This document shows positions 20,019 through 31,145 of a stretch of 64,000 nucleotides of DNA, piece after piece (position 1 is the stretch's first letter; each line of letters starts with the position of its first letter). The stretch is from a phage. A program made the translations under genes and the position numbers. The notes under the pieces were generated by a model. That model made no database searches. It was not told the DNA's origin and saw nothing but the letters and a program-made list of their open reading frames with translations. The stretch is from assembly GCA_024875585.1 (NCBI GenBank), contig GCA_024875585.1_4107.1; one strand, given 5' to 3'.

Positions 20019-21167
20019 TCATTGTATAAATGACATATCTACTTCTGTATAATTAAGAACGTTCTGTCCAGAAATACCACCCATTACTACTATTGCAAGG
20101 CCACAATAATATAATTTTCCAGTATCCGTAAGTATAAGTGATCCAGATGGACTGCGTACCAAATCACACGAACTATTAAAAGAAGTATAAGAAGGAGTAT
20201 AGGAGTACTGATTATTATTATTACCAACACCTAATTGCCCAAACCCATTCGATCCAGAAGCATATAGAACTTCATCTGCTTTGACAATATGTGATGCCAT
20301 GTTACCAACACAAGTATATAGAGTATAAACTCCTGAACTCAATAATGTCGGAGTTTTATATTGTATATCTGTAGATGTAGAAGTACCACCTGTACCAAAT
20401 TCGTTCCCATATTGTGCACCGAACTGTTTACCACAAGCGTACAAATTATTATCCGATTTGATAAAAAATGTACTCTGATAACTTACATTAAAATCTATAA
20501 CATCCGAAGAAATCATCGTCACCCCAGTAATAGAAGTTTGATTACCCGTGCCCAACTGGTAGTAATAGTTAAAACCACAACCCCATAAAGTATTATCTTC
20601 TCGCAAATAAATGTTACCAACTGCCTTTTTAACCGAAGTTATAGTATCTACTCTTTTGAATGTGTTAAAAGAATTAATGTTTGTACCATCACCAAATGAT
20701 GATATGTTCGATATATTGTTAACTCCACAACAATACAATGTACCATCTTTTGTTATCAAATTCACCTTCATATCATAAAAACTACTCATGTATTTTATAT
20801 CAGAAACATTAACACCACTTGATGTTATCCACGTAGTACAGTCCGTCCACAAAGTTTTTCTATCAGTTACACCAGTGAATGCCTTCGTGTTACCAGTGAT
20901 AAAAACTTTTCCAGTACCTTTCTCTTCATACAATTGACAATCACTACTGTTATCTTCCAATAGAACTCGTTTAACATTCTCCGCACAAAGAATAAATTTA
21001 CTCGATGCTACACCTGTACCAGTACCCCAATTCGTCGCAGAAGATGCATACAACTTATCAGTATAAGTATCATGAAGATACATAGAATCACTGGAATATA
21101 TTTTAAAACGCCCTTCTTTCTCAGGTATAATATTCCCGTACTTAACCATTCTCCCAAAAGGTAACAT
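20019..21167 (-). CDS. RCC1-like repeat protein, paralog 5
   Basis: MLPFGRMVKYGN; LWGCGFNYYYQLGTGNQT, LYACGKQFGAQYGNEFGTG, LYASGSNGFGQLGVGNNN. Confidence 0.8.
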   Translation of the reverse strand: MLPFGRMVKYGNIIPEKEGRFKIYSSDSMYLHDTYTDKLYASSATNWGTGTGVASSKFILCAENVKRVLLEDNSSDCQLYEEKGTGKVFITGNTKAFTGVTDRKTLWTDCTTWITSSGVNVSDIKYMSSFYDMKVNLITKDGTLYCCGVNNISNISSFGDGTNINSFNTFKRVDTITSVKKAVGNIYLREDNTLWGCGFNYYYQLGTGNQTSITGVTMISSDVIDFNVSYQSTFFIKSDNNLYACGKQFGAQYGNEFGTGGTSTSTDIQYKTPTLLSSGVYTLYTCVGNMASHIVKADEVLYASGSNGFGQLGVGNNNNQYSYTPSYTSFNSSCDLVRSPSGSLILTDTGKLYYCGLAIVVMGGISGQNVLNYTEVDMSFIQ

Positions 21168-21200
21168 ATCCCCTCCTTATTCATTATATCATATTTACCC
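21168..21200 (-). promoter_or_regulatory. conserved upstream cassette
   Basis: minus reading gggtaaatatgaTATAATgaataaggaggggatATG. Confidence 0.45.
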
Positions 21201-21209
21201 AAAAAACAC

Positions 21210-21238
21210 TTGACACCCTTTCAGTACTGTTGTACGAT
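21210..21238 (+). promoter_or_regulatory. sigma70-type promoter of the family C array (divergent from RCC1 island)
   Basis: TTGACA(21210-15)-17nt-TACGAT(21233-38); spacer contains cagtactg. Confidence 0.55.
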
Positions 21239-21263
21239 AGAAGGAATATTAGGAGAACTACAC

Positions 21264-21491
21264 ATGACAAATACCCTTAAGTACTACCTCAATACTCTGC
21301 CCGACCTAGAGTACGGGAAGTTTCTCGCAGATAGTTCGTGGCTGATTGAGCTAAAAACACATAACAGCCCTGGATGCACCCTTATGATGAACAATGCAAT
21401 TGATACCCTTATAGTGAGTATTTTACATAGCAATATCTACGAGGATAACAATAAACAATTAACAAAAATCTTAGTACTGCTATCTCTATGA
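21264..21491 (+). CDS. family C small protein (diverged member)
   Basis: ATG 21264 after aggag; LKYYLNTL.., MNNAIDTLI.., tail ILVLLSL. Confidence 0.65.
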   Translation: MTNTLKYYLNTLPDLEYGKFLADSSWLIELKTHNSPGCTLMMNNAIDTLIVSILHSNIYEDNNKQLTKILVLLSL

Positions 21492-21700
21492 ACACTATGA
21501 GCACTGAACAGTTCTACATCAATGCACTACCAACTAAAAGTCTTCAAGAAAGCTTACTGTATACACAAAAGAATTTTAAAAACTTCAAACGTTGCCCTAA
21601 ACTACTGAACTCGTACAGGAATAATATTATAAGAAATGTTTTACAAGGAGAAGAAAGTATGCAATACTATCACATCCTTATCCTTATATTGGAGTACTAA
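21488..21700 (+). CDS. family C small protein
   Basis: ATGA overlap; EQFYINAL.., tail ILILILEY. Confidence 0.65.
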   Translation: MNTMSTEQFYINALPTKSLQESLLYTQKNFKNFKRCPKLLNSYRNNIIRNVLQGEESMQYYHILILILEY

Positions 21701-21701
21701 T

Positions 21702-21911
21702 ATGAATACTGAACATAAAGAATTCTACACCAAATACCTCAGTAACGAAGAACAATTGTTTCTAAGAAGTGTATCACCTGTAAGTACCAATACTCAATTC
21801 GGTAGAGATTGCTTTAATAATTGTATACGTAGTACCCTAGAAGCTATCGAATACAATAACAAAAATATTATGTACTCAGGTTTAATAGGACTAATATTCT
21901 TCTATGAATAA
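21702..21911 (+). CDS. family C small protein
   Basis: MNTEHKEFYTKYL.., FNNCIRSTLEAI, tail LIGLIFFYE. Confidence 0.7.
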   Translation: MNTEHKEFYTKYLSNEEQLFLRSVSPVSTNTQFGRDCFNNCIRSTLEAIEYNNKNIMYSGLIGLIFFYE

Positions 21912-22098
21912 TCATAAAGATTTCTATGGTAGTAAACTACACAAACATGAACAGCTATCATTCTCTTTAGCACCACCTATGAGAAAGGATAATCTATATT
22001 ATAATTACGATTTCAGGATGGCGACACGTTATGCAATAGAACATCAGTTCCCTGAAACTAAGTACCGCTCTATCCTGAACCTCATCTTTAAGTTCTAA
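21904..22098 (+). CDS. family C small protein
   Basis: MNNHKDFYGSKL.., tail ILNLIFKF. Confidence 0.7.
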   Translation: MNNHKDFYGSKLHKHEQLSFSLAPPMRKDNLYYNYDFRMATRYAIEHQFPETKYRSILNLIFKF

Positions 22099-22145
22099 AA
22101 ACCGCACCAGGGTCCGAGTACTTTAACATAGTAAGGCTAATTACA

Positions 22146-22331
22146 ATGAATCACATAAGCTACTACTACCAACAACTATCCGACAGAGACAAGTACAGCC
22201 ACAATTCCCATGTATGGTACTACAAACGCGGCAGTATAAGAGACAAACAACATTACTTCTGTATTTCTATTAAAGAAGCACTAACAACTAAGTACACGTA
22301 CAGAGCAGTACTTAAACTAATCTCTATCTAA
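22146..22331 (+). CDS. family C small protein
   Basis: MNHISYYYQQL.., tail VLKLISI. Confidence 0.6.
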   Translation: MNHISYYYQQLSDRDKYSHNSHVWYYKRGSIRDKQHYFCISIKEALTTKYTYRAVLKLISI

Positions 22332-22339
22332 GGAATACT

Positions 22340-22519
22340 ATGCAAGAATTCTATATAGAACATATAACCATAAAAGACCGTTTCATGTACGACACCTTCG
22401 TGAAATACTACAAACTGGGAACAAAAAGTACTAAAAATATAAATCTCAATAGCTGCATTCATTCTGCACTAACAAAAGAAAATCCCTTCAGGGAAATCCT
22501 TGCACTTGCATCTGTATAA
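22340..22519 (+). CDS. family C small protein (59 aa; below ORF-track cutoff)
   Basis: MQEFYIEHI...NSCIHSALTKEN...ILALASV; SD aagga. Confidence 0.6.
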   Translation: MQEFYIEHITIKDRFMYDTFVKYYKLGTKSTKNINLNSCIHSALTKENPFREILALASV

Positions 22520-22529
22520 AGGAATTCAA

Positions 22530-23189
22530 ATGAAACTTAATCCACACAGTAAACAATACCTTAAGCACTTTAAATACCTCAACAGTATTCAAGCAGAATC
22601 AGTTACATCATCTTATACGTATCACCCGAATATACTAAAGAAACGAAATAAAAAGAAAAAATCCAGACCTGTTCTCGTATCTAAGAACCTCAAATCGTAC
22701 TTGAAGAAAAATAATATAGCTCTTGCTTTTATTAGTATCTATAATACTGATTTAAAAGTATTGAGTACTAATACCAGCACAAAAGCACTAAAGAATGCAT
22801 CTATCTATATACACATGGATAATATCCCGTGCACTATAATTCTATCTTTCGGGAATGTATACTTCTTCGGGAATTGTAATAGCACCCATGATATCAGTAC
22901 TGCACAATTCCAAATCGGAGATATGTACTGCATGGGTTCAGAAAAAATACACGATAACATGCACTTCTTCCAAAAGCAACGTACTAACGAAACTGATACA
23001 GTACTGCAATTCCTCAAAGAATTACAAAACAAAGAATTATCCGAGGAAGAAGAATTCATGTACAGTACTGTAATCGATAATCCAGGACTCTATAAAAACG
23101 CGTACAAACTAACAAAACATGTACAGGAACTTATCAGTACTGATAAGAAATTCCATCACCTCATTACGTATATTTCAAACTATGTATAA
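22530..23189 (+). CDS. hypothetical protein (219 aa) embedded in family C array; family B-like core
   Basis: ATG 22530 after aaagga; LSEEEEFMYSTVIDN resembles family B LSDESLFQYSTMYDN (Q replaced by M). Confidence 0.7.
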   Translation: MKLNPHSKQYLKHFKYLNSIQAESVTSSYTYHPNILKKRNKKKKSRPVLVSKNLKSYLKKNNIALAFISIYNTDLKVLSTNTSTKALKNASIYIHMDNIPCTIILSFGNVYFFGNCNSTHDISTAQFQIGDMYCMGSEKIHDNMHFFQKQRTNETDTVLQFLKELQNKELSEEEEFMYSTVIDNPGLYKNAYKLTKHVQELISTDKKFHHLITYISNYV

Positions 23190-23364
23190 AGAATTCTACA
23201 AAGATAAAATCCCAATGCATCTACAACACCATATACCAAACGTTGCATTGGGCATAAAAGATCACGCAAAGATAATGTTCCAACAATGTACTAAGTACAC
23301 GCTCATATACGATGATAATCCATATATGCTGTACTACGTAGTAATGCTAACATTCAGGTACTAA
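23182..23364 (+). CDS. family C small protein
   Basis: MYKEFYKDKI.., tail VVMLTFRY. Confidence 0.7.
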   Translation: MYKEFYKDKIPMHLQHHIPNVALGIKDHAKIMFQQCTKYTLIYDDNPYMLYYVVMLTFRY

Positions 23365-23365
23365 T

Positions 23366-23545
23366 ATGCACAAATATAAAGAATTCTACCTCTCGTACCT
23401 TAATTCCGATATAGTAACATCCAATACCTTCAGTACTAAAATTATCTATAATGAAGTAATGAAAGAATGTATTAAAGGTGCTATTAACCCTAAAGATACG
23501 TATGACTTGTACTATGCAGTACTAACCCTTGTTTTCACGAAATAA
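23366..23545 (+). CDS. family C small protein (59 aa; below ORF-track cutoff)
   Basis: MHKYKEFYLSYL...MKECIKGAINPK...VLTLVFTK; ggtactaatATG junction. Confidence 0.6.
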   Translation: MHKYKEFYLSYLNSDIVTSNTFSTKIIYNEVMKECIKGAINPKDTYDLYYAVLTLVFTK

Positions 23546-23553
23546 CACATAAT

Positions 23554-23742
23554 ATGAATAACCACAAAGAATACTACATACAATTTCTCCCCAGTATTTT
23601 TGAACACTACGCCAGATATAAAGTCCCCCTGGATAACGATTTGGCAGTACTGGGATTCAATCACTGCATAGAACGAAGTATAGAAAATAGTAATAGCTAT
23701 GAACAATTATATAACACTATCCTACTTATATTCAGGTACTAA
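23554..23742 (+). CDS. family C small protein
   Basis: MNNHKEYYIQFL.., FNHCIERSIENS, tail ILLIFRY. Confidence 0.75.
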   Translation: MNNHKEYYIQFLPSIFEHYARYKVPLDNDLAVLGFNHCIERSIENSNSYEQLYNTILLIFRY

Positions 23743-23743
23743 T

Positions 23744-23932
23744 ATGCACAAAGAATACTACGCAAAATATTTCCCAATGTATCTCAGAACTAATCTATTA
23801 GATAAACCTCGCGATATCAATGCACAAAACGATAAAGTGTACTTTATTATGTGCACTAAAGCATGTATACTAGATCATGACAGCTACCATCGAGTACTGT
23901 ATCATACACTGTACCTAGCTTTCGTATTCTAA
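23744..23932 (+). CDS. family C small protein
   Basis: MHKEYYAKYF.., tail LYLAFVF; ggtactaatATG junction. Confidence 0.75.
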   Translation: MHKEYYAKYFPMYLRTNLLDKPRDINAQNDKVYFIMCTKACILDHDSYHRVLYHTLYLAFVF

Positions 23933-23941
23933 GAGAACAAT

Positions 23942-24127
23942 ATGCATAAAGAATTCTACTTAAGCCATCTGGATCTAAACTCCCAAATGCTTATACCACT
24001 AATCCCAATAGATATCAAGGATAAGAAAAATACCGAACAATTCATTTACCATACACAGTGTGCGATCACCCCAAATTACATTCCATATGAATTGTACTAC
24101 ATTCTCGCCCTAATATATAGGTACTAA
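23942..24127 (+). CDS. family C small protein
   Basis: MHKEFYLSHL.., tail LALIYRY. Confidence 0.75.
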   Translation: MHKEFYLSHLDLNSQMLIPLIPIDIKDKKNTEQFIYHTQCAITPNYIPYELYYILALIYRY

Positions 24128-24128
24128 T

Positions 24129-24314
24129 ATGCATAGAGAATACTACACACAATTTGTTAAAGGGAACTACAAACATGCCGTACCCAGAACCCCTTTAAAT
24201 TCTCATGACCCAAGTACTATATTCCTGTTTAATGACGCAATACGTACAGTACTCAATACTAAAGATGAACAAGTGCAGTACGTATTCTTACTTTTACTTA
24301 TATACAGACACTAA
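24129..24314 (+). CDS. family C small protein
   Basis: MHREYYTQFV.., FNDAIRTVLNTK, tail LLLIYRH; 18-bp tandem duplication (atacagacactaactaat x2, 24302-24337) at its 3' junction. Confidence 0.75.
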   Translation: MHREYYTQFVKGNYKHAVPRTPLNSHDPSTIFLFNDAIRTVLNTKDEQVQYVFLLLLIYRH

Positions 24315-24337
24315 CTAATATACAGACACTAACTAAT

Positions 24338-24520
24338 ATGAATAAAGAACATAAAGACTTCTACATAAGAAAACTAACATTCGTCCCCGTAAGAATATAC
24401 AAAGAATGCGACCCAAGATTATACCTATGGCACTTCAATGAGTGCATAAAAGATTCTATATACCCTAAGAACTATAAAGAACAATTGTGCTCAGTACTAA
24501 CACTAGTACTATCATATTAA
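24338..24520 (+). CDS. family C small protein
   Basis: MNKEHKDFYIRKL.., FNECIKDSIYPK, tail LTLVLSY. Confidence 0.75.
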   Translation: MNKEHKDFYIRKLTFVPVRIYKECDPRLYLWHFNECIKDSIYPKNYKEQLCSVLTLVLSY

Positions 24521-24533
24521 TAGAGATAATACT

Positions 24534-24725
24534 ATGTATAAAGAGTACTATATAAGTAAACTCAAAGAGAATGAACAAGCATGGATTAAATCTATAATAG
24601 CACTTGCATTTAATAGATATGCATTTAACAGATGCACAGAGATTGCTATAGAACCTTGTCCTATTAAAGAGAAGGCACAGTACAATCAGTACTACTATAT
24701 GTTAATGCTTATATATAGAAAGTAA
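24534..24725 (+). CDS. family C small protein
   Basis: MYKEYYISKL.., FNRCTEIAIEPC, tail LMLIYRK. Confidence 0.75.
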   Translation: MYKEYYISKLKENEQAWIKSIIALAFNRYAFNRCTEIAIEPCPIKEKAQYNQYYYMLMLIYRK

Positions 24726-25381
24726 TTCAACATAGAGACAGGGGAAGCTCCGCAGGGTAAGCATTGGACAGGCTTTAACATATGTTATATATGTTAAAAT
24801 TCAGCCTGGACAAATGCGATCACTAGGATTCTCCCCAGGCTAAACCCCGTAATCATATATAAACATTTAAGTAATCATTTATAATCATTGTGGTGATCAG
24901 TAGTGATTAGTATTGAGTACTAGAGTGTAATAGAGTACAGGAATGTGCACGTTTAATCAAGAACGTAGCAGTACTGATATGCCACTAAGTAGGCAGAGGA
25001 AGTCTGCCGTACTTTGTAGTTTCCAAGCTCCTTTTCCATTTTGCAAATTACATCAAATGTAATCAAAAGTAATCACGTAATGATTAGTACTGAAATATTA
25101 GTTTCATCTTTTTTCAAATACCTTTTTACCCTTCGGGATAAATGTATTTTTATCCATTTACCTTTGGGGTAAAATCCCATTACCCCTTGAGGCTCCAGCA
25201 AAAAGTTGGAAAGTACTCCATCGTAAATATGGATCGTAAAAATTTTGGAGTACCTATGAAATAAAAGTTGGATCTTCGAAAGTTGAAATTTACGTTGGGA
25301 CATTGATGTTTTTTGGGATATAATGAGTTTTGTAGTGATGAAGTTTGTACGATTACAGTACTGAATAATGAAAGAAAGCTA

Positions 25382-25409
25382 TTGACATTATGATTCAGTA
25401 CTGTATAAT
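25382..25409 (+). promoter_or_regulatory. orphan sigma70-type promoter (no ORF downstream)
   Basis: TTGACA(25382-87)-16nt-TATAAT(25404-09) with cagtacTG extended -10. Confidence 0.55.
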
Positions 25410-25811
25410 GTTCTACATAGAGAGATGAGTTGCCGCAAACAATTCATTCACTCTACCTCCTGTCGTGAGACAGTACAGAAAAGATAGTTCCTCCTATGCG
25501 TGGTACATCTTTTTATAACCTCTTTTTTAGTAATATAAACAGTACTGGTATTAACAGAATGGTATCAGTACTGACTTTAATCTAATACATTATACCACCA
25601 GCACAAGCTGGTGGATTCCCTCTAACAGTATTCAGTACTACATGATAGTCTTCATCCTCCTAGGGTAACATAGTGAGGGCTATTGTGGGAGTACTGAATA
25701 CTCCTTTCAAAAGATAGAATAATGGTATAGTACCGACGGATTTTGGGCGTAGTTACCCTGGGTGGATTTTGGACGTAGATATGTCTAGCCCTCCAGAAGT
25801 CTGGAAGTAAA

Positions 25812-25923
25812 GATGGCTATCCATCTAGACGGCTAAACGGATAGATTTCTAGATGGCTGTATGGCTAGACGTTTGGATGGCTAAACGGCTAGATGGTTAC
25901 ACGTCTGGAAGTATAGACGGCTA
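25812..25923. repeat. 8-bp-periodic iteron-like array (about 14 units, consensus GAYGGCTA)
   Basis: gatggcta tccatcta gacggcta aacggata gatttcta gatggctg tatggcta gacgtttg gatggcta aacggcta gatggtta cacgtctg gaagtata gacggcta; flanked by gtctggaagta at 25797 and 25901. Confidence 0.7.
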
Positions 25924-26084
25924 AATCAAAATTTTTATTTTGTTTTTCCAATAGTTCCCCTACCGCGTGAGGATATTTTTCCCCGCAGTATCTGGAGTTA
26001 GATTTTTCTGAATCTGGAATCATTATCTAATAAACTGGGGGCAATGTCAACCGCCTGGATGAATATTTTTAAAAATAATCTAGT

Positions 26085-26174
26085 ACTGAATTTTGGGCGT
26101 AACTATGCACCCGGTGGGCTTGAGTCTTTCTCGACTTGATGAAACTATTATACAGTACTAGAAAAATAAAGCAA
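26085..26174 (-). ncRNA. candidate small-RNA unit (own promoter + CCCAC-core transcript)
   Basis: minus reading TTGCTT(26174-69)-16nt-TATAAT(26152-47), then agtttcatcaagtcgagaaagactcaagCCCACCGGGTGCatagttacgcccaaaattc; no ORF. Confidence 0.35.
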
Positions 26175-26261
26175 TACCCTAAACGCAAAAAAATTTAATT
26201 AATTTGCTTGCTATCCTGGGCCGTAATATGGTACTATTAGTTCAGTACTGAGAAAGTGCTT

Positions 26262-26290
26262 TAACCTGCTAGGGTGCGGGAGTGTATCCT
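26262..26290 (+). repeat. partial plus-orientation copy of the CCCAC-N-GGGTGCGGGAGTGTATC element
   Basis: ctgctAGGGTGCGGGAGTGTATCc; faces the reverse copy at 26313-26324. Confidence 0.5.
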
Positions 26291-26294
26291 TTTT

Positions 26295-26391
26295 AAATTA
26301 TATGAATTTTGGGCGGATCTCGGCACCCTGTGGGTCAGTGCCTTGTGTCCGGCTTATGTAGTAATTATACGCTTTTTCAGTACTGAGTCAA
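26295..26391 (-). ncRNA. candidate small-RNA unit (own promoter + CCCAC-core transcript)
   Basis: minus reading TTGACT(26391-86)-16nt-TATAAT(26369-64), then tactacataagccggacacaaggcactgaCCCACAGGGTGCcgagatccgcccaaaattc; GGCAC/GUGCC can close an 11-nt loop. Confidence 0.35.
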
Positions 26392-26628
26392 TAGCTAAAA
26401 ACAAAAATAATTGAAAATAATTTAACGCGTTTAAACGGCCCGTAAAGCCCTGGAGTGATTGGAATGGTACAAATGTATAGCTTAGGTGTATTAATGCGTT
26501 AGAATGCGATTGAGGCCGTTTTATGGGGTGTAGTGGTGATTTGATTGATTCAGTACTGAATAATAGTACTGAAAGATAGTTCCCCTATATAGAAAGAAAA
26601 CTATTTTAAAAGTACATGTAGAAAGTAC

Positions 26629-26687
26629 TTGCAAACTATCTCAATTGGCGTATAATGTTTTACATCGAGAGCGGGAACACTTCCCGC
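26629..26687 (+). promoter_or_regulatory. early-type promoter + GGGAA/TTCCC leader hairpin
   Basis: aaAGTACTTGCAA-16nt-TATAAT(26651-56); hairpin gcgggaa-cac-ttcccgc 26671-87. Confidence 0.65.
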
Positions 26688-26711
26688 TGCACATAAAGAG
26701 AGATTAAAACG

Positions 26712-27074
26712 ATGGCTACTCAAATCAATAAAATTATTGCTAACCTGGTTAACTTCCGCGACGAGATGAAAGGTCTTCCGGCTGAAACGGTAAAAATTCA
26801 CATTTCAGCTTATCGGGAACTTATTGCAATGTTACCGCTTAAGCGTGAACAATACGCCGCTACCGTGATGCTTGATGCGATGATCCATAAGATGATCGCC
26901 AGTGATTTAACGATGGTTTATCAGTACATGGGCGAAAATTTCGCGGTGTCTGGTAAGCCAGTACCAGGGATGGCAACTACTGAGGAATTGCACGGTTTAA
27001 ATTTAAAACAAGATGCATGGGATAATATGCCTCGTTTCCTGGTATGGGCTGACAGTGGCAAAATTTACAAATAA
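26712..27074 (+). CDS. hypothetical protein (120 aa)
   Basis: clean ORF after promoter/hairpin; purine-rich SD agagag. Confidence 0.8.
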   Translation: MATQINKIIANLVNFRDEMKGLPAETVKIHISAYRELIAMLPLKREQYAATVMLDAMIHKMIASDLTMVYQYMGENFAVSGKPVPGMATTEELHGLNLKQDAWDNMPRFLVWADSGKIYK

Positions 27075-27088
27075 GTTTAATAAAGTAC

Positions 27089-27174
27089 TTGCATACTAAG
27101 TTAAAACAAGTATAATACTTTCTATCAGGTGCAACGGGAAGTTTTTAAACTTCCCTATAGGGGAATAGTTCCCC
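27089..27174 (+). promoter_or_regulatory. early-type promoter + tandem leader hairpins
   Basis: TTGCAT-16nt-TATAAT(27111-16); hairpin A gggaagtttttaaacttccc 27136-55; hairpin B ggggaa-tag-ttcccc 27160-74. Confidence 0.65.
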
Positions 27175-27195
27175 ACTATATAAGAGGATTAAAAA

Positions 27196-27435
27196 ATGGC
27201 TAAATCAAAAATGTTCTTAGGTCACAAAAACAAAACTCATTGGAATGTAAGCCTTTGGATTAATAACGATGAGTCATTGTACCGGTTGGCCCAGGACTTT
27301 ATTGCCGCCAACACTAATCGCAATGATGCGGCCCGTCATATGATGTTATTTTTAGAACAGACTGGACAAGATAAAACACCGGACGGATTCAAATATAGCA
27401 CTACTGCGATCCGTGCGGCGATGGTTGGAATGTAA
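27196..27435 (+). CDS. hypothetical small protein, paralog of 29228..29467
   Basis: GHKNKTHWNVSLWINNDESLYR...TPDGFKYSTTAIRAAMVGM shared with paralog. Confidence 0.85.
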   Translation: MAKSKMFLGHKNKTHWNVSLWINNDESLYRLAQDFIAANTNRNDAARHMMLFLEQTGQDKTPDGFKYSTTAIRAAMVGM

Positions 27436-27447
27436 TAGAATTTATTT

Positions 27448-27483
27448 AAAGTACTATCGCAAAAAATGATAGTACTTTATAAT
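27448..27483 (+). promoter_or_regulatory. promoter embedded in 11-bp inverted repeat
   Basis: AAAGTACTATC(27448-58)...GATAGTACTTT(27468-78) overlapping TATAAT(27478-83); weak -35 ATCGCA. Confidence 0.5.
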
Positions 27484-27520
27484 AGTGTTTTATTCATACA
27501 CCAACGATAAGGGCAACAGC

Positions 27521-27787
27521 ATGAATATTAAGTATTTTGCGACGCGTGAACAAGCTCGGAAGGCGGCGAAAGTGGAAGGTGCAACGTTTAAAGATATGGG
27601 CATACAATCGGAACGTGGTAAACGTTGGGCCATTGTAAAGCGTAGTACAGCCAGATCATTACAGTACTGGCTATCAGCTTTAAAAAGTCCTGATAGTGTA
27701 TCGCGTCGAGTGGTAGAAATAAAGCTCGACCGTAAGGGGAATCGTGTTACCGTGTACCGTACTAAAAAGATTGCAGTGCTTGAATAA
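27521..27787 (+). CDS. hypothetical small protein, paralog of 39641..40036
   Basis: MNIKYFATREQARKAAKVEGATFKDMG...DRKGNRVTVYRTKK shared pattern; ATG 27521. Confidence 0.8.
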   Translation: MNIKYFATREQARKAAKVEGATFKDMGIQSERGKRWAIVKRSTARSLQYWLSALKSPDSVSRRVVEIKLDRKGNRVTVYRTKKIAVLE

Positions 27788-27794
27788 AAAGTAC

Positions 27795-27853
27795 TTGCAA
27801 ACTATGTTTAATGGCGTATAATGTTTTACATCGAGAGCGGGAACACTTCCCGC
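27795..27853 (+). promoter_or_regulatory. early-type promoter + leader hairpin
   Basis: TTGCAA(27795-800)-16nt-TATAAT(27817-22); gcgggaa-cac-ttcccgc 27837-53. Confidence 0.65.
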
Positions 27854-27873
27854 CTATAACCTGGAGTAATAAA

Positions 27874-28104
27874 ATGACTAATATGTATATGACTGAAGTT
27901 AAAACCGTAAAAGATACTACCACTAATAAAACTACTTACTTACAGCGGATCTGTGGTGTATGGCAACGTATCAGCAAATCAAAGTACTTTAAATTAACAT
28001 CATATGCCAATCGTTCGGATTCATTCAGTACTGAAATAAAAGGTAATAAAGTACACCAATACGGCACTTATTATTATTATAGCCTGGCCGCGATTGCAGT
28101 ATAA
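27874..28104 (+). CDS. hypothetical small protein (76 aa)
   Basis: ATG 27874 after ctggag; the track start 27811 lies in the promoter. Confidence 0.7.
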   Translation: MTNMYMTEVKTVKDTTTNKTTYLQRICGVWQRISKSKYFKLTSYANRSDSFSTEIKGNKVHQYGTYYYYSLAAIAV

Positions 28105-28134
28105 GTAGTTTACAAATCTTTACAATTGCCGGTA

Positions 28135-28225
28135 TTGACTTAAAATGTCAGTACTGGCATAATGTATCTATTGAAACGAACAATTTGGCCCACGGGGTGC
28201 GGGAGTGTATCTATAGAAAAAGTAG
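28135..28225 (+). ncRNA. candidate small-RNA unit, rightward member of a convergent pair
   Basis: TTGACT(28135-40)-17nt-CATAAT(28158-63), then gtatctattgaaacgaacaatttggCCCACGGGGTGCGGGAGTGTATCtatag; no ORF. Confidence 0.35.
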
Positions 28226-28308
28226 TTTAGTACAGTTACAATTGTGCACCCGGTGGGTTAGCTGTTGTCATGGGATATATTATACCAGTACTGGATAGTG
28301 CTGTCAAT
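28226..28308 (-). ncRNA. candidate small-RNA unit, leftward member of a convergent pair
   Basis: minus reading TTGACA(28308-03)-18nt-TATAAT(28284-79), then atatcccatgacaacagctaaCCCACCGGGTGCacaattg. Confidence 0.35.
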
Positions 28309-28352
28309 ACCTTTTTACTATTCAGTACTGAAAACTATTTGATAAAAAGTAC

Positions 28353-28380
28353 TTGCAAACTATGTTTAAAGGCGTATAAT
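28353..28380 (+). promoter_or_regulatory. early-type promoter driving structured leader
   Basis: TTGCAA(28353-58)-16nt-TATAAT(28375-80); upstream ttcagtactgaa palindrome. Confidence 0.6.
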
Positions 28381-28386
28381 GTTTTA

Positions 28387-28466
28387 CATCAGGACGGGGA
28401 ATGAAATAAGTAACTTCCCGTTAAGTAGCCCAGGAGTAAGGCATACGAAAAACTCCCCTGATAAAA
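28387..28466 (+). ncRNA. structured leader / candidate RNA motif (three-way junction), copy 1
   Basis: P1 atcagg/cctgat, P2 acgggga/ttcccgt, P3 ggagt/actcc, helices abutting; near-identical copy at 38447. Confidence 0.45.
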
Positions 28467-28470
28467 TAGT

Positions 28471-28498
28471 TTGACAATTGTTTTTAAAAGCGTATAAT
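28471..28498 (+). promoter_or_regulatory. second sigma70-type promoter after the structured leader
   Basis: TTGACA(28471-76)-16nt-TATAAT(28493-98). Confidence 0.55.
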
Positions 28499-28530
28499 AC
28501 TTACATCAACTACTGAATGAGGGTTACAAA

Positions 28531-29142
28531 ATGAAAACTATCACTACTACTACTTATGTTATGGATTTTTCTGAATTGAACGCAGAACAAAAAACGTCAG
28601 CTATCGAACTGGTTCGGGAACGTGAAAAAAACTTAAACGACGATTATTTTTCTGAAAGTGAAATTGAATACTATAAAGAAACAGTATTGCCGGAATATGG
28701 CATTAATGAAGCTGAAATACAATTCAGTGGTTTTTGGTCGCAGGGTGACGGTGCATCAATTAGTACTGACCACGTTGACGCAGTGAAGTTTTTACGTAAG
28801 GTAAGAGCATTAACTAAGTATCGCTCAATCCGTCACCTGCTGAATGAAGATGATTTGGCGATGAGTGTAAAGCGTTCTCACTCCCGCTACTCACATGAGA
28901 ACACTGTAAGCGGGTACATTGAATCGGCTTACACTGATTTAACCGCAAAACAAGAAACGTTAGTTAATGAGCTTGAGGAACTACTCACTGATACTATTCG
29001 TGAATTATCCCGCAAGTTGTACCGTGATTTAGAAAATGCATATGAGGATCAATTCACTACTGAAAACATCGTATCACTGATTGAGGGTAACGAATATCAA
29101 TTCAATGTTATTGATGGCGTAGTAGAATCAATTGCATATTAA
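28531..29142 (+). CDS. hypothetical acidic protein (203 aa)
   Basis: SD tgaggg; contains FSGFWSQGDGASISTD motif that I cannot place in a family. Confidence 0.85.
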   Translation: MKTITTTTYVMDFSELNAEQKTSAIELVREREKNLNDDYFSESEIEYYKETVLPEYGINEAEIQFSGFWSQGDGASISTDHVDAVKFLRKVRALTKYRSIRHLLNEDDLAMSVKRSHSRYSHENTVSGYIESAYTDLTAKQETLVNELEELLTDTIRELSRKLYRDLENAYEDQFTTENIVSLIEGNEYQFNVIDGVVESIAY

Positions 29143-29149
29143 AAAGTAC

Positions 29150-29209
29150 TTGCAAACTAAGTTTAAAAGCGTATAATACTTTATATCGAGGCGGGGAATG
29201 GTTCCCCGC
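29150..29209 (+). promoter_or_regulatory. early-type promoter + leader hairpin
   Basis: TTGCAA(29150-55)-16nt-TATAAT(29172-77); gcggggaa-tgg-ttccccgc 29191-209. Confidence 0.65.
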
Positions 29210-29227
29210 TCAAACGAGGATTTAAAA

Positions 29228-29467
29228 ATGGCTAGTACTAAAACTTACAACGGACACAAAAACAAAACTCATTGGAATGTAAGCCTTTGGATCAATAACG
29301 ATGAATCATTGTACCGGATTGCTCAAAATTGCATCGCTCAAAGTAAAACGAAAGATATTGCAGCGGAATTTATGTACCGCAGATTAAAAGCCAACGGTAT
29401 TACTACAACGCCGGACGGATTCAAGTATAGCACTACGGCGATCCGTGCTGCAATGGTTGGAATGTAA
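29228..29467 (+). CDS. hypothetical small protein, paralog of 27196..27435
   Basis: ATG 29228 after cgagga; NGHKNKTHWNVSLWINNDESLYR...AIRAAMVGM. Confidence 0.85.
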   Translation: MASTKTYNGHKNKTHWNVSLWINNDESLYRIAQNCIAQSKTKDIAAEFMYRRLKANGITTTPDGFKYSTTAIRAAMVGM

Positions 29468-29486
29468 TATTCAGTACTATAACAAT

Positions 29487-29506
29487 GGCGGGGAATAGTT
29501 CCCGCC
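29487..29506 (+). promoter_or_regulatory. GGGAA/TTCCC hairpin between genes
   Basis: ggcggggaa-tag-ttcccgcc followed by ttta. Confidence 0.45.
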
Positions 29507-29524
29507 TTTACTAAGGGTTATCTA

Positions 29525-29806
29525 ATGAGTAAAGTAATAAAGTACAATGTGTTAAGCAAATCATTGTCTATCAGTGAATGCACCGATGGTTTTTGGCTGT
29601 ACGATGAAACGCGTGGCATGAATTTAGCTATGCAGGAGAAAACTGCTGATGCGGCATATCTTAAAGCACTGGAATACTACCAGAAGCGTTTAACGGAAGT
29701 AGAAAACGATTATAATAACCTTAAAGCGAAAGTGGATAATTTCGTTGGTCAATTCGTTGACGATGACGAGGGGCACTACTGCGACCGTTGTGGATCTTAC
29801 AGTTAA
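29525..29806 (+). CDS. hypothetical protein (93 aa)
   Basis: SD taaggg; C-terminal HYCDRCGSYS. Confidence 0.75.
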   Translation: MSKVIKYNVLSKSLSISECTDGFWLYDETRGMNLAMQEKTADAAYLKALEYYQKRLTEVENDYNNLKAKVDNFVGQFVDDDEGHYCDRCGSYS

Positions 29807-29823
29807 GTACTAAGGATTATATA

Positions 29824-30027
29824 ATGAGTGATTTAATTGAACGTATCAAAGAGCTTGAAGAAAAAGAATTGCAGTTGATCGGTTTACAGAATAAAATCTA
29901 TCATGATTTGGGGAGTTTTATCAATGCGTGGGATAATGGCGATCCTGATGCGTTACCTGCTAACCGCCAGGCAATGATCAATGATGTGCGTGGTGTCTTT
30001 GAGTATGTTTTAAAGCAATTAAATTAA
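29824..30027 (+). CDS. hypothetical small protein (67 aa, coiled-coil-like)
   Basis: ATG 29824 after taagga. Confidence 0.7.
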   Translation: MSDLIERIKELEEKELQLIGLQNKIYHDLGSFINAWDNGDPDALPANRQAMINDVRGVFEYVLKQLN

Positions 30028-30036
30028 AAAAAGTAC

Positions 30037-30096
30037 TTGCAATTAGTTTTTAGTACTGTATAATGTTTTACATAGAGGGGAGAAATGGTTCTCCCT
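30037..30096 (+). promoter_or_regulatory. early-type promoter + leader hairpin
   Basis: AGTACTTGCAA-16nt-tAGTACTGTATAAT(30059-64); aggggagaa-atgg-ttctccct 30076-96. Confidence 0.65.
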
Positions 30097-30114
30097 GGTA
30101 ATGAGGAAAATACA

Positions 30115-30336
30115 ATGGCTAATATCACTACTCTTTCTCAACTGGAAGCACTGGTTAAATCTATGCGGGAACATGCCGACAAAATCGGCGTAAAAGATCC
30201 AGCCGTTTGCTTCTGCGACGAAATGAATGATGATACATTGGTAATAGCAGAAGTTCAGGACGTTTCTAACTATTCATCGCGTTACACTGGCGGCGTAGCA
30301 AATAAAGGTGACTTCTGTTTATACCTTACAAAATAA
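30115..30336 (+). CDS. hypothetical small protein (73 aa)
   Basis: ATG 30115 after tgaggaa. Confidence 0.75.
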   Translation: MANITTLSQLEALVKSMREHADKIGVKDPAVCFCDEMNDDTLVIAEVQDVSNYSSRYTGGVANKGDFCLYLTK

Positions 30337-30341
30337 CAACG

Positions 30342-30368
30342 AGGGGATCAATTGATCCCCTTTCTTTT
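30342..30368 (+). terminator. intrinsic terminator
   Basis: aggggatca-at-tgatcccct + tttcttttt. Confidence 0.7.
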
Positions 30369-30371
30369 TCA

Positions 30372-30469
30372 GTACTGAATAATTTAATAGACGGATCTAT
30401 GCACCCGGTGGGTTAGTGACTGTTTCGTCTTTATGTAGTAATTATGCCAGTACTGGATGCACTTGTCAA
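30372..30469 (-). ncRNA. candidate small-RNA unit (own leftward promoter + CCCAC-core transcript)
   Basis: minus reading TTGACA(30469-64)-17nt-CATAAT(30446-41), then tactacataaagacgaaacagtcactaaCCCACCGGGTGCatagatccgtcta...; runs into the palindromic terminator at 30342. Confidence 0.35.
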
Positions 30470-30502
30470 CAACTATTTTTCAAATACTTTTTATTAAAAT
30501 AC

Positions 30503-30556: not shown

Positions 30557-30577
30557 TGGTAACTAAGGAATAAGAAA

Positions 30578-30814: not shown

Positions 30815-30831
30815 AAGTACTTGATAATAGT

Positions 30832-31139: not shown

Positions 31140-31145
31140 GTACAT

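What the first reader, a model, noticed from the sequence alone, without database searches (positions are those of the whole stretch)
24901..26640. Extreme over-representation of the palindrome AGTACT (often CAGTACTG or TTCAGTACTGAA)
Counting by eye, AGTACT occurs 17 times in 24901-26640 (1.74 kb). A given hexamer would be expected about once or less in a span this size.

The motif is also frequent across the whole window, in stereotyped places:
- fused to the -35 element (aaAGTACTTGCAa)
- fused to an extended -10 (tAGTACTGTATAAT)
- as TTCAGTACTGAA about 60 bp upstream of promoters (for example 28321, 30369, 26550)
- in the stems of terminator hairpins (ccAGTACTgaatAGTACTgg at 14214; gccagtatcaAGTACTggc after each RCC1 gene)

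Possible explanations:
- the binding site of a phage or host DNA-binding protein
- a signal tied to the phage-encoded methyltransferase at 8408..9244
- a structural signal, since the GTAC core is a flexible step

I did not do a whole-window count.
Basis: seen in the sequence. Interest (0 to 1): 0.65.

Follow-up and report, generated by a model that had tools for sequence, protein, structure and literature searches.

The report
Hyper-abundant AGTACT palindrome in jumbo phages
This giant E. coli phage and its relatives carry the six-letter palindrome AGTACT about ten times more often than chance allows, in genes and between them; selection keeps it there as a DNA-level mark whose reader is still unknown and which seems not to have been described.

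Summary
AGTACT occurs 225 times in the window (about 19.6 expected) and 17 times in 24901-26640. It is the top 6-mer. The window is an Asteriusvirus jumbo coliphage (121Q/PBECO4 group).

Promoter consensus does not explain the excess:
- Coding DNA is about 9-fold enriched, in all three reading frames.
- In a relative, 52% of Ser-Thr dipeptides are spelled AGT-ACT.
- 91.5% of sites are conserved at 90% genome identity, against 63% for random 6-mers.

The trait is clade-wide: about 9-18-fold in Escherichia, Klebsiella, Cronobacter, Pectobacterium, Yersinia and Xanthomonas RaK2-like phages. It is absent from Pseudomonas phage PA5oct, and an unrelated coliphage avoids the word entirely. A host factor such as SlmA is therefore unlikely. 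The methyltransferase at 8408-9244 is an accessory gene and not the cause.

Early promoters carry the word at -39 and -19.

Two blocks (45.5-49 kb and 52-59 kb) replace AGTACT with the one-strand variant AGTACA, in opposite orientations. This is unexplained.

Best reading: a selected recognition word for a phage-encoded, restriction-enzyme-grade DNA reader or modifier. The nearest analogue is cyanobacterial HIP1.

The parts
1..64000 (.). Window-wide scatter of AGTACT: 225 copies, 3.5 per kb. The preferred context is (T)(T)nC-AGTACT-GnA(A). G at -1 and C at +1 are disfavoured.
   Evidence: 131 copies lie in coding DNA (14.7 expected) in frames 49/31/51. 92 lie in intergenic DNA (4.6 expected).
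24901..26640 (.). Most sites are the extended form (TT)CAGTACTG(AA).
24726..26711 (+). A non-coding leader of about 2 kb with no ORF longer than 46 aa. It is conserved at 85-93% identity in all Asteriusvirus genomes and is left unannotated in most of them.
   Evidence: No Rfam match.
24988..45053 (.). Inferred direct terminal repeat (DTR) of about 20.1 kb, the early-gene region. It holds 118 AGTACT, or 5.9 per kb.
   Evidence: Base 1 of the annotated DTR of vB_Ec-M-J (1-21525) aligns to window 24988, and its end maps to about 45053. Sharanji has a 20,668-bp DTR by PhageTerm (PMC11895373). Site count. The boundary is inferred by homology and was not measured on this phage.
25382..25409 (+). A perfect sigma-70 promoter (TTGACA-16-TATAAT) inside the leader, with AGTACT (25397) in the spacer directly before the -10 element.
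25540..25573 (+). A 14-bp-stem hairpin made by two CAGTACTG copies pairing with each other. It may end a transcript of about 160 nt that starts at the 25382 promoter.
   Evidence: The transcript is an inference.
26624..26656 (+). Early promoter of the first DTR gene, with AGTACT fused to the -35 element (AGTACTTGCAA-N16-TATAAT).
   Evidence: Across the window, site starts cluster at -39 (13 promoters) and -19 (12 promoters).
45500..49000 (-). Polar domain A, just inside the DTR boundary. It has 9 TGTACT (that is, AGTACA on the minus strand), 0-1 AGTACA on the plus strand, and only 1 AGTACT. All genes here are on the plus strand.
   Evidence: The same layout occurs in TH47 and in EC22.5-2 at 51-55 kb.
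49500..52000 (.). An AGTACT-rich segment (15 copies) between the two polar domains. On both sides, AGTACA points away from it in the 5'->3' direction.
52000..59000 (+). Polar domain C. It has 36 AGTACA on the plus strand, 0 TGTACT and only 2 AGTACT. The sites use all three frames (12/9/11), and 12 of 18 Ser-Thr dipeptides are spelled AGT-ACA. The 5' flank bias matches that of AGTACT.
   Evidence: 28 of 36 sites are conserved as AGTACA in EC22.5-2 at 88% identity, and none becomes AGTACT. Binomial test for 36:0, p = 3e-11.
14214..14234 (+). An intergenic hairpin whose stem is built from two AGTACT copies (CCAGTACTGAATAGTACTGG).
16133..20010 (-). Hairpins GCCAGTATCAAGTACTGGC just downstream of the minus-strand RCC1-repeat genes, at 16133-16151, 17555-17573 and 19992-20010.

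Best explanation
AGTACT is a positively selected recognition word on the duplex DNA of RaK2-like jumbo phages. I propose that a phage-encoded factor reads it. The factor would have two-fold symmetry and restriction-enzyme-grade specificity. Most probably it is a site-specific DNA-modification enzyme (a methyltransferase), its reader, or both.

The result would be a dense, phage-specific mark on the phage chromosome:
- about one per 280-380 bp genome-wide;
- about one per 170 bp in the terminal repeat;
- about 12-fold or more denser than in a 50-kb sample of host DNA.

This density is comparable to that of GATC in E. coli.

Proposed functions, all inferred:
(i) Distinguish and protect phage DNA. 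The genome otherwise purges Type II restriction sites, and this word is itself a Type II target.
(ii) Organise or control transactions on phage DNA.
(iii) At -39 and -19 of the sigma-70 early promoters, let the same factor modulate early transcription.

The AGTACA-only domains would be half-sites. They would be bound or modified asymmetrically and so give an orientation-dependent effect next to the terminal repeat.

Shown: the enrichment, its DNA-level nature, purifying selection, its distribution across the clade, the promoter positions and the polar domains. Inferred: that a protein reads the word, that the protein is phage-encoded, that modification is involved, and every functional consequence.
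For: DNA-level selection:
- Coding DNA is 9-fold enriched in all three frames.
- In long ORFs of EC22.5-2, 266 of 515 Ser-Thr dipeptides are AGT-ACT (84 expected). xxA-GTA-CTx occurs 138 times against 27 expected, and xAG-TAC-Txx 69 times against 7.8.
- The Ser-Thr dipeptide itself is inflated: 515 against 379 expected.

Purifying selection:
- 184 of 201 sites are identical in a relative at 90.3% identity, against 63% for random 6-mers.
- Per-base identity is 96.5-98.5% inside the word and about 90-92% beside it.

Two-fold symmetric, strict recognition:
- The word is palindromic and its flank preferences are symmetric, C at -1 and G at +1.
- CAGTACTG occurs 202 times against 4.4 expected.
- Single-mismatch variants are only 1-2-fold enriched, against 9-fold for the exact word.

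A phage factor rather than a host factor. The enrichment is about 9-18-fold in:
- Asteriusvirus, whole genome: 913 against 101 expected, with at least 11 copies in every 10-kb bin;
- RaK2 and GAP32;
- CBB;
- Yersinia phage fHe-Yen9-04;
- Xanthomonas phage XaC1: 116 against 10.8.
PA5oct is depleted, with 4 against 23 expected. The coliphage outra has 0 against 10 expected, although it shares an early promoter and 5'UTR with this phage.

Candidate enzymes. A Dam-type N6-adenine methyltransferase is conserved, usually next to a cytidyltransferase gene, in every enriched lineage including XaC1. A C5 methyltransferase is conserved in Escherichia, Erwinia and Klebsiella members. The PA5oct paper mentions no methyltransferase.

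Density contrast. An E. coli K-12 sample has 0.22 AGTACT per kb. EC22.5-2 has more AGTACT (913) than GATC (602).

Promoter use. Sites start at -39 and -19 in both the window and GAP32, and the only preferred pair spacing is 20-22 bp.

Gradient. Density is highest in the terminal repeat and its non-coding leader, where the 12-bp form TTCAGTACTGAA clusters.
Against: - No reader protein was identified. Forty window proteins scanned against Pfam gave no DNA-binding or nuclease domain that could be linked to the word. No homologue of SlmA, YefM, Phd or TrpR exists in EC22.5-2.
- The specificity of the conserved methyltransferases is unknown. Their co-occurrence with the trait is phylogenetically non-independent, since all the phages form one clade. 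Dam-type enzymes of this family usually methylate GATC (from memory).
- m5C at AGTA-C-T would create McrBC (R-mC) targets in E. coli K-12, which argues against the C5 enzyme (established knowledge, not tested here).
- Methylation alone gives no reason for enrichment.
- A simple symmetric reader does not obviously explain why two gene blocks select AGTACA on one strand and lose AGTACT.
- Over 95% of sites are not in promoters, so transcriptional control cannot be the main function.
Confidence: 0.45

Rival explanations
1. A strand-read signal for a DNA-tracking machine. Possible machines are a phage-specific Chi-like attenuator of a helicase-nuclease, a KOPS-like translocase guide, or a primase start site. 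The unit read would be H-AGTAC-W on one strand. The palindrome AGTACT would be the economical two-strand version, used where the machine travels both ways. AGTACA would be used where travel is one-way.
For: - The two polar domains have opposite orientation and are independent of transcription direction.
- In domain C the forward orientation is about 12-fold enriched and the reverse orientation is essentially absent. In 350 kb of EC22.5-2, the only 3-kb windows without AGTACT are these two domains.
- Density is highest at the genome terminus, where exonucleases enter.
- Genuine E. coli Chi is also about 10-fold or more enriched and concentrated in the terminal repeat. Resisting end-processing nucleases is therefore a real pressure on this phage.
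- Spacing is slightly more even than random, with CV 0.81-0.88 and a maximum gap of 2.1 kb.
- Sharanji encodes a helicase-exonuclease-RecA cluster and a solo Cas4 (PMC11895373).
Against: - Only 1.6% of hexamers are palindromes, so a strand-read word being palindromic would be a coincidence or would need special pleading.
- The polar AGTACA sites keep the symmetric flank bias, Y at -1 and R at +1, as expected for duplex recognition.
- If AGTAC alone were read, AGTACT should still be used in the polar domains, yet it falls to chance level or below.
- Known Chi and KOPS words are not palindromic, and reversed Chi carries no known cost.
- No cognate enzyme was identified.
Confidence: 0.2
2. Operator sites of a non-enzymatic, abundant phage DNA-binding protein. 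This would be a TF1-like or nucleoid-associated protein, or an early-gene repressor. It would coat the phage chromosome, shut off early promoters, and nucleate at the 12-bp TTCAGTACTGAA sites in the terminal leader.
For: - Paired sites bracket the -35 element at -39 and -19 in two genera.
- The extended palindromes cluster in the leader.
- The word is palindromic with symmetric flanks.
- This overlaps with the best explanation and differs only in excluding catalysis.
Against: - The exact hexamer is far more enriched than any one-mismatch variant. That is unusual for helix-turn-helix operators.
- Flanks carry little information, at most 0.32 bit at -1.
- No candidate protein was found.
- It does not explain immunity to AGTACT-specific restriction unless occupancy is near-complete.
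Confidence: 0.2
3. A neutral drive rather than selection. Biased mismatch repair (VSP-like, coupled to a methyltransferase) or another mutational process would continually regenerate AGTACT.
For: The phages encode a C5 methyltransferase. VSP repair is known to distort related words in E. coli (from memory).
Against: - Individual sites are conserved well above background.
- The deamination neighbours AGTATT and AATACT are not depleted, at O/E 1.9 and 1.1.
- The effect is 9-18-fold, far larger than known repair biases.
- Dipeptide composition is altered.
- Recently acquired RaK2 tail-fibre genes have few sites. That fits either slow selection or slow drive, but the polar domains keep AGTACA stably.
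Confidence: 0.05
4. A host-protein site. The candidate is the nucleoid-occlusion factor SlmA, whose site GTGAGTACTCAC has an AGTACT core. Phage DNA would activate SlmA and block cell division.
For: - The core is identical to that of the SlmA-binding sequence (PMC3020112).
- Sharanji, a close relative, makes infected cells filament and has no known division inhibitor (PMC11895373).
Against: - No match to GTRAGYRCTYAC, strict or relaxed, in 350 kb. Only 9-10 of 913 sites carry even one correct half-site.
- SlmA needs a purine at position 3, G at position 1 and T at position 2 (PMC3020112). The phage prefers a pyrimidine at -1 (430 YAGTACTR against 107 RAGTACTY) and shows no G or T enrichment at -3 or -2.
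- The trait is present in a Xanthomonas phage.
Confidence: 0.03
5. An artefact of repeated promoter and terminator modules, or a mark tied to the accessory methyltransferase at 8408-9244.
For: Promoter modules carrying AGTACT are duplicated many times in the terminal repeat. The 8408-9244 protein has methyltransferase motifs.
Against: - Enrichment holds in coding DNA only.
- It extends through 350 kb, including late genes.
- The methyltransferase is absent from EC22.5-2 and from nearly all relatives.
Confidence: 0.02

Closest known systems
HIP1 (Highly Iterated Palindrome 1, GCGATCGC) of cyanobacteria (PMC5861425)
   Same: Both are short palindromes far above expectation (HIP1 15-300-fold). 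Both occur within and between ORFs. In both, sites are conserved between genomes, so selection rather than biased repair maintains them. Neither acts as a peptide or RNA motif. The function of both is unknown. HIP1 has been linked to cognate methyltransferases (the last point is from memory).
   Different: The word, host and scale all differ: a virus clade rather than a cellular phylum, and a 6-mer rather than an 8-mer. Here there is a gradient toward the terminal repeat, fixed positions in early promoters, and strand-polar variant domains, none of which are reported for HIP1. I did not test for long-range periodicity.
GATC / Dam-SeqA-MutH marking of the E. coli chromosome
   Same: Both are palindromic words at about one per 250-400 bp in coding and non-coding DNA, with extra copies in control regions. 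The E. coli sample has 3.8 GATC per kb. The phage has 2.6-5.9 AGTACT per kb.
   Different: GATC is a 4-mer at roughly chance frequency. AGTACT needs about 10-fold enrichment to reach that density. Methylation of AGTACT is not shown, and no SeqA- or MutH-like reader was found.
Chi (GCTGGTGG) and KOPS (GGGNAGGG): over-represented, oriented words read by RecBCD and FtsK
   Same: All are over-represented and selected in coding DNA at a cost to the protein sequence. The AGTACA domains show the near-total orientation skew typical of such words.
   Different: AGTACT itself is palindromic and therefore has no orientation. Its density is about 10 times higher than that of Chi in E. coli. No tracking enzyme is known to read it. 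True Chi is separately enriched in this phage.
SlmA-binding sequence (GTGAGTACTCAC) of E. coli (PMC3020112)
   Same: The central six bases are identical, and both are palindromic.
   Different: The outer six bases that SlmA needs are not enriched, and the -1/+1 preference is the opposite. The phage word also occurs in a Xanthomonas phage.
Type II restriction sites in phage genomes (ScaI-type AGT/ACT; TatI W/GTACW)
   Same: The specificity is of the same kind: an exact 6-bp palindrome, with W-GTAC-W the only GTAC family tolerated. The phage clearly responds to restriction pressure, since 23 of 64 palindromic hexamers are absent from 350 kb.
   Different: Restriction targets are expected to be avoided, as in coliphage outra with 0 against 10 expected. 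Here the word is enriched about 10-fold. That E. coli strains carry ScaI isoschizomers is from memory; I could not confirm it in the paper library.
Stoperators of cluster A mycobacteriophages; TF1 sites of Bacillus phage SPO1 (from memory)
   Same: In both, sites for a phage-encoded DNA-binding protein are scattered along the genome and overlap early promoters.
   Different: Those systems have tens of sites, asymmetric or degenerate and mostly intergenic. Here there are about 900 exact palindromes, mostly inside genes.

Membership tests
Highly iterated palindromes (HIP1-type) | A short palindrome at least about 10-fold over-represented genome-wide | tested here: met
   225 against 19.6 expected in the window. 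913 against 101 in EC22.5-2. 9-18-fold in five further phages.
Highly iterated palindromes (HIP1-type) | Present inside ORFs in all frames as well as between them; not a peptide motif | tested here: met
   Frames 49/31/51 in the window. 266/138/69 in EC22.5-2 long ORFs.
Highly iterated palindromes (HIP1-type) | Sites conserved between related genomes beyond background | tested here: met
   91.5% against 63% for random 6-mers at 90.3% identity.
Highly iterated palindromes (HIP1-type) | The word is GCGATCGC (or a close variant) in a cyanobacterial genome | tested here: not met
   The word is AGTACT in phage genomes. This is therefore an analogue of HIP1, not a member.
Methylation mark (Dam/GATC-like) | The word is modified by a cognate methyltransferase encoded by the same genome | not testable with these tools
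   Conserved Dam-type and C5 methyltransferases exist but their specificity is unknown. The 8408-9244 enzyme is excluded.
Methylation mark (Dam/GATC-like) | Density of roughly one site per few hundred bp throughout the chromosome | tested here: met
   2.6 per kb genome-wide and at least 11 per 10 kb everywhere. The E. coli sample has 3.8 GATC per kb.
SlmA-binding sites | 12-bp GTRAGYRCTYAC with G1, T2, A4 and G5 required (PMC3020112) | tested here: not met
   0 matches in 350 kb. Flank preferences are opposite.
SlmA-binding sites | Dependence on a host that has SlmA | tested here: not met
   A Xanthomonas phage has the same enrichment. That Xanthomonas lacks SlmA is from memory.
Sigma-70 promoter element | Fixed position relative to the -35 and -10 elements | tested here: met
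   Starts at -39 and -19 in the window and in GAP32. At -5 and +15 relative to the -35 start in EC22.5-2.
Sigma-70 promoter element | Occurrence confined to promoters, and required by the promoter type | tested here: not met
   About 31 of 913 sites are at those positions. The homologous promoter of phage outra lacks the word.
Chi/KOPS-type oriented words | Strand-asymmetric word with strong orientation skew | tested here: inconclusive
   AGTACT has no orientation. AGTACA is 36:0 in 52-59 kb and reversed in 45.5-49 kb, but is roughly balanced elsewhere, 55 against 49 in the window.
Chi/KOPS-type oriented words | A cognate tracking enzyme responds to the word | not testable with these tools
   No biochemical data, and no candidate identified.
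Type II restriction target under avoidance | Under-representation in phages exposed to the enzyme | tested here: not met
   The word is enriched about 10-fold, while 23 other palindromic hexamers are absent. It is avoided in outra.

The most novel reading that the evidence does not exclude
RaK2-like jumbo phages run a private epigenetic or 'self' code on their DNA. One hexamer, AGTACT, is written about 900 times per genome and read by a phage-encoded system. It has a second, one-stranded dialect (AGTACA), laid out in two divergent domains beside the terminal repeat, which directs an orientation-dependent DNA transaction such as strand-specific marking or nicking, fork direction or end processing. 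This would be the first highly iterated, functionally read genomic word described in a virus. It would come with its own decoding accommodation: a tRNA-Ser(ACU) cognate to AGU.
Probability: 0.3. Interest if true: 0.9.

Novelty: new variant of a known kind. Interest (0 to 1): 0.78.

Why it matters
Phage genomes are known for purging short palindromes to escape restriction. This clade purges 23 of the 64 palindromic hexamers completely, yet multiplies one of them about tenfold. It does so at a visible cost to codon choice and even to protein sequence, and has kept this up across at least six lineages with different hosts.

Such selection implies an unrecognised molecular system that reads or writes AGTACT on about 350 kb of DNA. 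That system would be a candidate for:
- how nucleus-less jumbo phages tell their own DNA from the host's;
- how they protect and organise their DNA;
- how they switch off early promoters.

The question is directly testable with methylome sequencing, ScaI/TatI digestion and oligonucleotide pull-downs.

The word is also a one-line bioinformatic signature for recognising these phages in metagenomes. The polar AGTACA domains give a rare handle on directional DNA transactions near a terminal repeat. Finally, the phage offers a tractable model for the long-unsolved HIP1 problem.

Tried and rejected
- Promoter or terminator consensus as the cause. Rejected by the coding-only statistics.
- The methyltransferase at 8408-9244. 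Rejected because it is an accessory gene, absent from EC22.5-2.
- The adenine methyltransferase g241 of the Yersinia phage. Also lineage-specific.
- SlmA hijack. It was attractive because Sharanji causes filamentation, but the flanks reject it and there are no SBS matches. The Xanthomonas phage also argues against it.
- LexA, TrpR or YefM/Phd-like readers. Recalled resemblances only. No homologues in the phage and the half-site geometry does not fit.
- An analogous private palindrome in PA5oct (CTGCAG). It looked 5-fold enriched in 30 kb, but fell to 2.75-fold in 80 kb with a strand-asymmetric, codon-like context. Dropped.
- Helical phasing between sites. There is none apart from the 20-22-bp promoter pair.
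- A GC-skew switch at the polar-domain boundary. There is no sign change, only a compositional shift near 51-52 kb.
- Pfam and PHROG scans of 40 window proteins. These included the terminal-repeat genes and the polar-domain genes. No DNA-binding candidate emerged.
- Rfam and tRNA scans of the window. Nothing significant: no family reached its gathering score, one weak Trp_leader hit below threshold (E = 0.58), and no tRNA genes.
- Literature. No paper in the library links AGTACT or ScaI with these phages. Eco255I could not be confirmed.
- One E. coli genome search showed the leader is not present in E. coli genomes.


Full report
**What the window is.** The window matches Asteriusvirus jumbo coliphages at 88-96% identity. 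These include 121Q, PBECO4, G17, UE-S1 and vB_Ec-M-J, with genomes of 350-380 kb and about 34% GC.

**The observation.**
Dinucleotide-preserving shuffles give 19.6 +/- 4.2, with a maximum of 32.
- It is the single most over-represented hexamer, at O/E 11.6. Its one-base shifts come next. No other palindromic hexamer exceeds O/E 1.9.
- A maximal-order Markov model 'explains' most of the count (E = 187). This is only because its expectation is built from the motif's own 5-mers.
- The preferred context is C at -1 and G at +1, with a weak T-rich/A-rich extension: TTnCAGTACTGnAA. G at -1 and C at +1 are disfavoured.

**Not a by-product of promoters.**
- Using my own gene calls, coding DNA holds 131 copies against 14.7 expected. 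Intergenic DNA holds 92 against 4.6. Coding copies use all three frames, 49/31/51.
- I assembled 350 kb of a relative, EC22.5-2, from loci L002-L008. It has 913 copies against 101 expected, and every 10-kb bin has at least 11.
- In its 238 longest ORFs:
  - 266 of 515 Ser-Thr dipeptides are spelled AGT-ACT (84 expected from codon usage);
  - xxA-GTA-CTx occurs 138 times against 27, and xAG-TAC-Txx 69 times against 7.8;
  - the Ser-Thr dipeptide is itself inflated, 515 against 379 expected, while Thr-Ser is at expectation.
- The word is therefore selected at the DNA level strongly enough to bend protein sequence.
- Site by site, 184 of 201 alignable window sites are identical in EC22.5-2 at 90.3% overall identity, against 63% for random hexamers. 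Per-base identity is 96.5-98.5% inside the word and about 90-92% beside it.
- Spacing is slightly more even than random, with CV 0.81-0.88 and a largest gap of 2.1 kb.

**Phylogenetic extent.** AGTACT is the top hexamer in each of these samples:

| Phage (host) | Observed | Expected |
|---|---|---|
| RaK2 (Klebsiella) | 120 | 10.9 |
| GAP32 (Cronobacter) | 245 | 13.4 |
| CBB (Pectobacterium) | 77 | 9.0 |
| fHe-Yen9-04 (Yersinia) | 75 | 7.6 |
| XaC1 (Xanthomonas) | 116 | 10.8 |

- In XaC1 the sites use all three frames.
- The Pseudomonas relative PA5oct has 4 against 23 expected in 80 kb.
- The unrelated coliphage outra (Justusliebigvirus) has 0 against 10 expected. It shares an early promoter and 5'UTR hairpin with this phage, but its version lacks the word.
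- The trait therefore follows the phage clade and not the host order.
- Horizontally acquired tail-fibre genes of RaK2 carry few sites, as expected for slow amelioration.
- A 50-kb E. coli K-12 sample has 0.22 AGTACT per kb and 3.8 GATC per kb. EC22.5-2 has more AGTACT (913) than GATC (602).

**Backdrop.** Twenty-three of the 64 palindromic hexamers are entirely absent from 350 kb. Examples are CCATGG (48 expected), TGGCCA (44), GCATGC (40) and GGTACC (33). The DNA is evidently exposed to Type II restriction, and yet one classical Type II word is multiplied.

- The stretch 24726-26711 has no ORF above 46 aa. It is conserved in all Asteriusvirus genomes and is unannotated in most.
- The annotated direct terminal repeat of vB_Ec-M-J is 1-21525. 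Its first base aligns to window 24988, and its last base maps to about 45053. Sharanji has a 20,668-bp repeat by PhageTerm (PMC11895373).
The AGTACT-dense zone is the terminal repeat, which carries the early genes: 118 sites, or 5.9 per kb. This placement is by homology.
- The leader contains:
  - a perfect sigma-70 promoter at 25382-25409;
  - a hairpin made of two CAGTACTG copies at 25540-25573;
  - several 12-bp TTCAGTACTGAA-type sites;
  - an 8-bp-phased ATGGCTARACG array at 25813-25924.

**Promoters.**
- In sigma-70-like promoters, site starts cluster at -39 (fused to or abutting the -35 element) and at -19 (abutting the -10 element). The counts are 13 and 12 of 32 promoters in the window.
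- The same two positions are used in GAP32, for example aaaAGTACTTTGACAaaatggttagAGTACTTTATAAT.
- EC22.5-2 shows the same pattern for 31 of 913 sites. There is no positional signal at late or middle promoter motifs.
- The only preferred distance between sites is 20-22 bp.

**Polar domains (new and unexplained).**
- Between 52.0 and 59.0 kb, AGTACT falls to chance (2 copies). AGTACA occurs 36 times on the plus strand and its complement never does. These sites use all frames, 12 of 18 Ser-Thr dipeptides are AGT-ACA, and the 5' flank bias is unchanged.
- Between 45.5 and 49.0 kb, just inside the repeat boundary, the opposite holds: 9 TGTACT, almost no AGTACA and 1 AGTACT. The genes there are also tiled on the plus strand.
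- The AGTACT-rich 49.5-52 kb segment lies between the two domains. AGTACA points away from it on both sides.
- The layout recurs in EC22.5-2, where these domains are the only 3-kb windows without AGTACT in 350 kb. It also recurs in TH47, whose block protein is only 53% identical.
- 28 of 36 AGTACA sites are conserved as such at 88% identity, and none has become AGTACT.
- Orientation therefore matters to whatever reads the word, and it is independent of transcription direction.

**Candidate readers.**
- The 8408-9244 protein has N6-adenine methyltransferase motifs. It is an accessory gene, with close copies in only three records, and EC22.5-2 lacks it.
- A Dam-type methyltransferase is conserved in every enriched lineage sampled, including XaC1, usually next to a cytidyltransferase gene.
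- A C5 methyltransferase is shared with Erwinia and Klebsiella jumbo phages. A 51%-identical homologue occurs in phi92-like phages.
- The CBB and phAPEC6 papers report both enzyme types (PMC5259590, PMC7247149). The PA5oct paper mentions none.
- The specificities of these enzymes are unknown.
- No DNA-binding candidate emerged from 40 proteins scanned or from homology to SlmA, YefM, Phd or TrpR.

**SlmA.**
- Its site GTGAGTACTCAC shares the core, and Sharanji makes cells filament (PMC3020112, PMC11895373).
- However, there is no match to the SlmA consensus in 350 kb, the flank preferences are opposite, and the trait exists in a Xanthomonas phage.

**Interpretation.**
- The palindromy, the symmetric flanks (kept even at AGTACA sites) and the sharp preference for the exact word point to duplex recognition by a two-fold-symmetric reader of restriction-enzyme grade.
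- The clade distribution points to a phage-encoded reader.
- The word is a Type II target in a genome that avoids such targets, which suggests that the sites are modified or occupied.
- I therefore favour a phage-specific mark, written and/or read by a conserved phage system. It would be used genome-wide, reused at early promoters, and the AGTACA domains would act as oriented half-sites. This is inference (confidence 0.45).
- The main rival is a strand-read signal for a tracking enzyme, Chi- or KOPS-like (0.2). It explains the polar domains and the terminal gradient better, but explains the palindromy worse.
- The nearest known phenomenon is cyanobacterial HIP1 (PMC5861425).
- I found no report of this feature in the accessible literature.

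Noticed in passing
Whole window; EC22.5-2 loci L002-L008: Extreme avoidance of palindromic hexamers. 23 of 64 are completely absent from 350 kb, for example CCATGG (48 expected), TGGCCA (44), GCATGC (40), CTGCAG (36) and GGTACC (33). GTGCAC, CACGTG and ACGCGT are not avoided. GAP32 shows the same pattern. The XaC1 and RaK2 samples show much less.
   Followed up: partly
Window 25607, 31976, 36288, 37430, 38365, 41884, 43461, 43685 (+), 3596 (+); 25595, 31914 (-): True E. coli Chi (GCTGGTGG) is strongly enriched. The window has 9 on the plus strand and 2 on the minus strand, against about 0.2 expected. EC22.5-2 has 16 and 12 against 1.45 per strand. Chi is concentrated in the terminal repeat, often inside terminator-like hairpins. 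This suggests selection against RecBCD attack from the genome ends.
   Followed up: partly
Window 25813-25924: An iteron-like array of about 8 copies of ATGGCTA(A/G)ACG with 8/16/24-bp phasing. It lies in the non-coding terminal leader, about 830 bp from the inferred genome end. It could be a binding array for a replication or packaging protein.
   Followed up: no
Window 25738-25781, 26087-26118, 26303-26334; also 28200-28300 and 30390-30440: A repeated element TGAATTTTGGGCG(N8-10)GCACCCGGTGGG in the leader and in several intergenic regions of the terminal repeat. No Rfam match.
   Followed up: no
Window 34870-34960, 38275-38370, 41285-41370, 43640-43730: A repeated module. A GC hairpin carries a -35 element (GGGATTGACTCCGGTCAGTCCC) and is followed by TGCTATTATAT and a conserved transcript of about 50 nt ending in CCCAYAGGGTGCGGGAGTGTATC. 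These may be small RNA genes or terminator-promoter cassettes.
   Followed up: no
Window, 5'UTRs of most terminal-repeat genes, e.g. 26668-26690: Nearly every early promoter is followed by a GGGGAA-N4-TTCCCC-type hairpin before the ribosome-binding site. Promoter plus hairpin is 83-85% identical to sequences in unrelated phi92/rV5-like coliphages.
   Followed up: partly
L008 19489-19580 and 20851-20924 (EC22.5-2 record 319489-319580 and 320851-320924): The phage tRNA set includes an unusual tRNA-Ser with anticodon ACU, directly cognate to AGU, and a tRNA-Thr(UGU). These are the codons inflated by AGT-ACT and AGT-ACA. This may be an accommodation to the cost of the motif.
   Followed up: no
Window 6866-8149, 1404-2045, 9312-9827: A GmrSD_N/DUF262 (ParB-like nuclease) protein, a T7-like protein kinase and an endonuclease V (pyrimidine-dimer glycosylase) lie upstream of the accessory methyltransferase at 8408-9244.
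   Followed up: no
L017 38449-39724 (PA5oct): PA5oct, the relative that lacks the AGTACT enrichment, encodes GTP cyclohydrolase I and QueD. This suggests 7-deazaguanine DNA modification as an alternative protection strategy.
   Followed up: no
L011 30001-40000 (RaK2 tail-fibre/depolymerase genes): AGTACT density drops to 2 and 6 per 5 kb, against 10-18 elsewhere, in genes annotated as similar to K11, K1E and K5 phage tail fibres. This is consistent with recent acquisition and slow amelioration toward the motif.
   Followed up: no
Window 27196-27435 and 29198-29467: Two paralogous DUF7249 proteins among the terminal-repeat early genes. The window also has a GNAT acetyltransferase at 36891-37247 and a DksA-like zinc-finger ORF around 36570-36890.
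   Followed up: no
Window 51000-53000: Composition shifts at the start of polar domain C. AT skew falls from about 0.2 to about 0.03, and GC skew rises from about 0.08 to about 0.2, without a change of gene strand.
   Followed up: no
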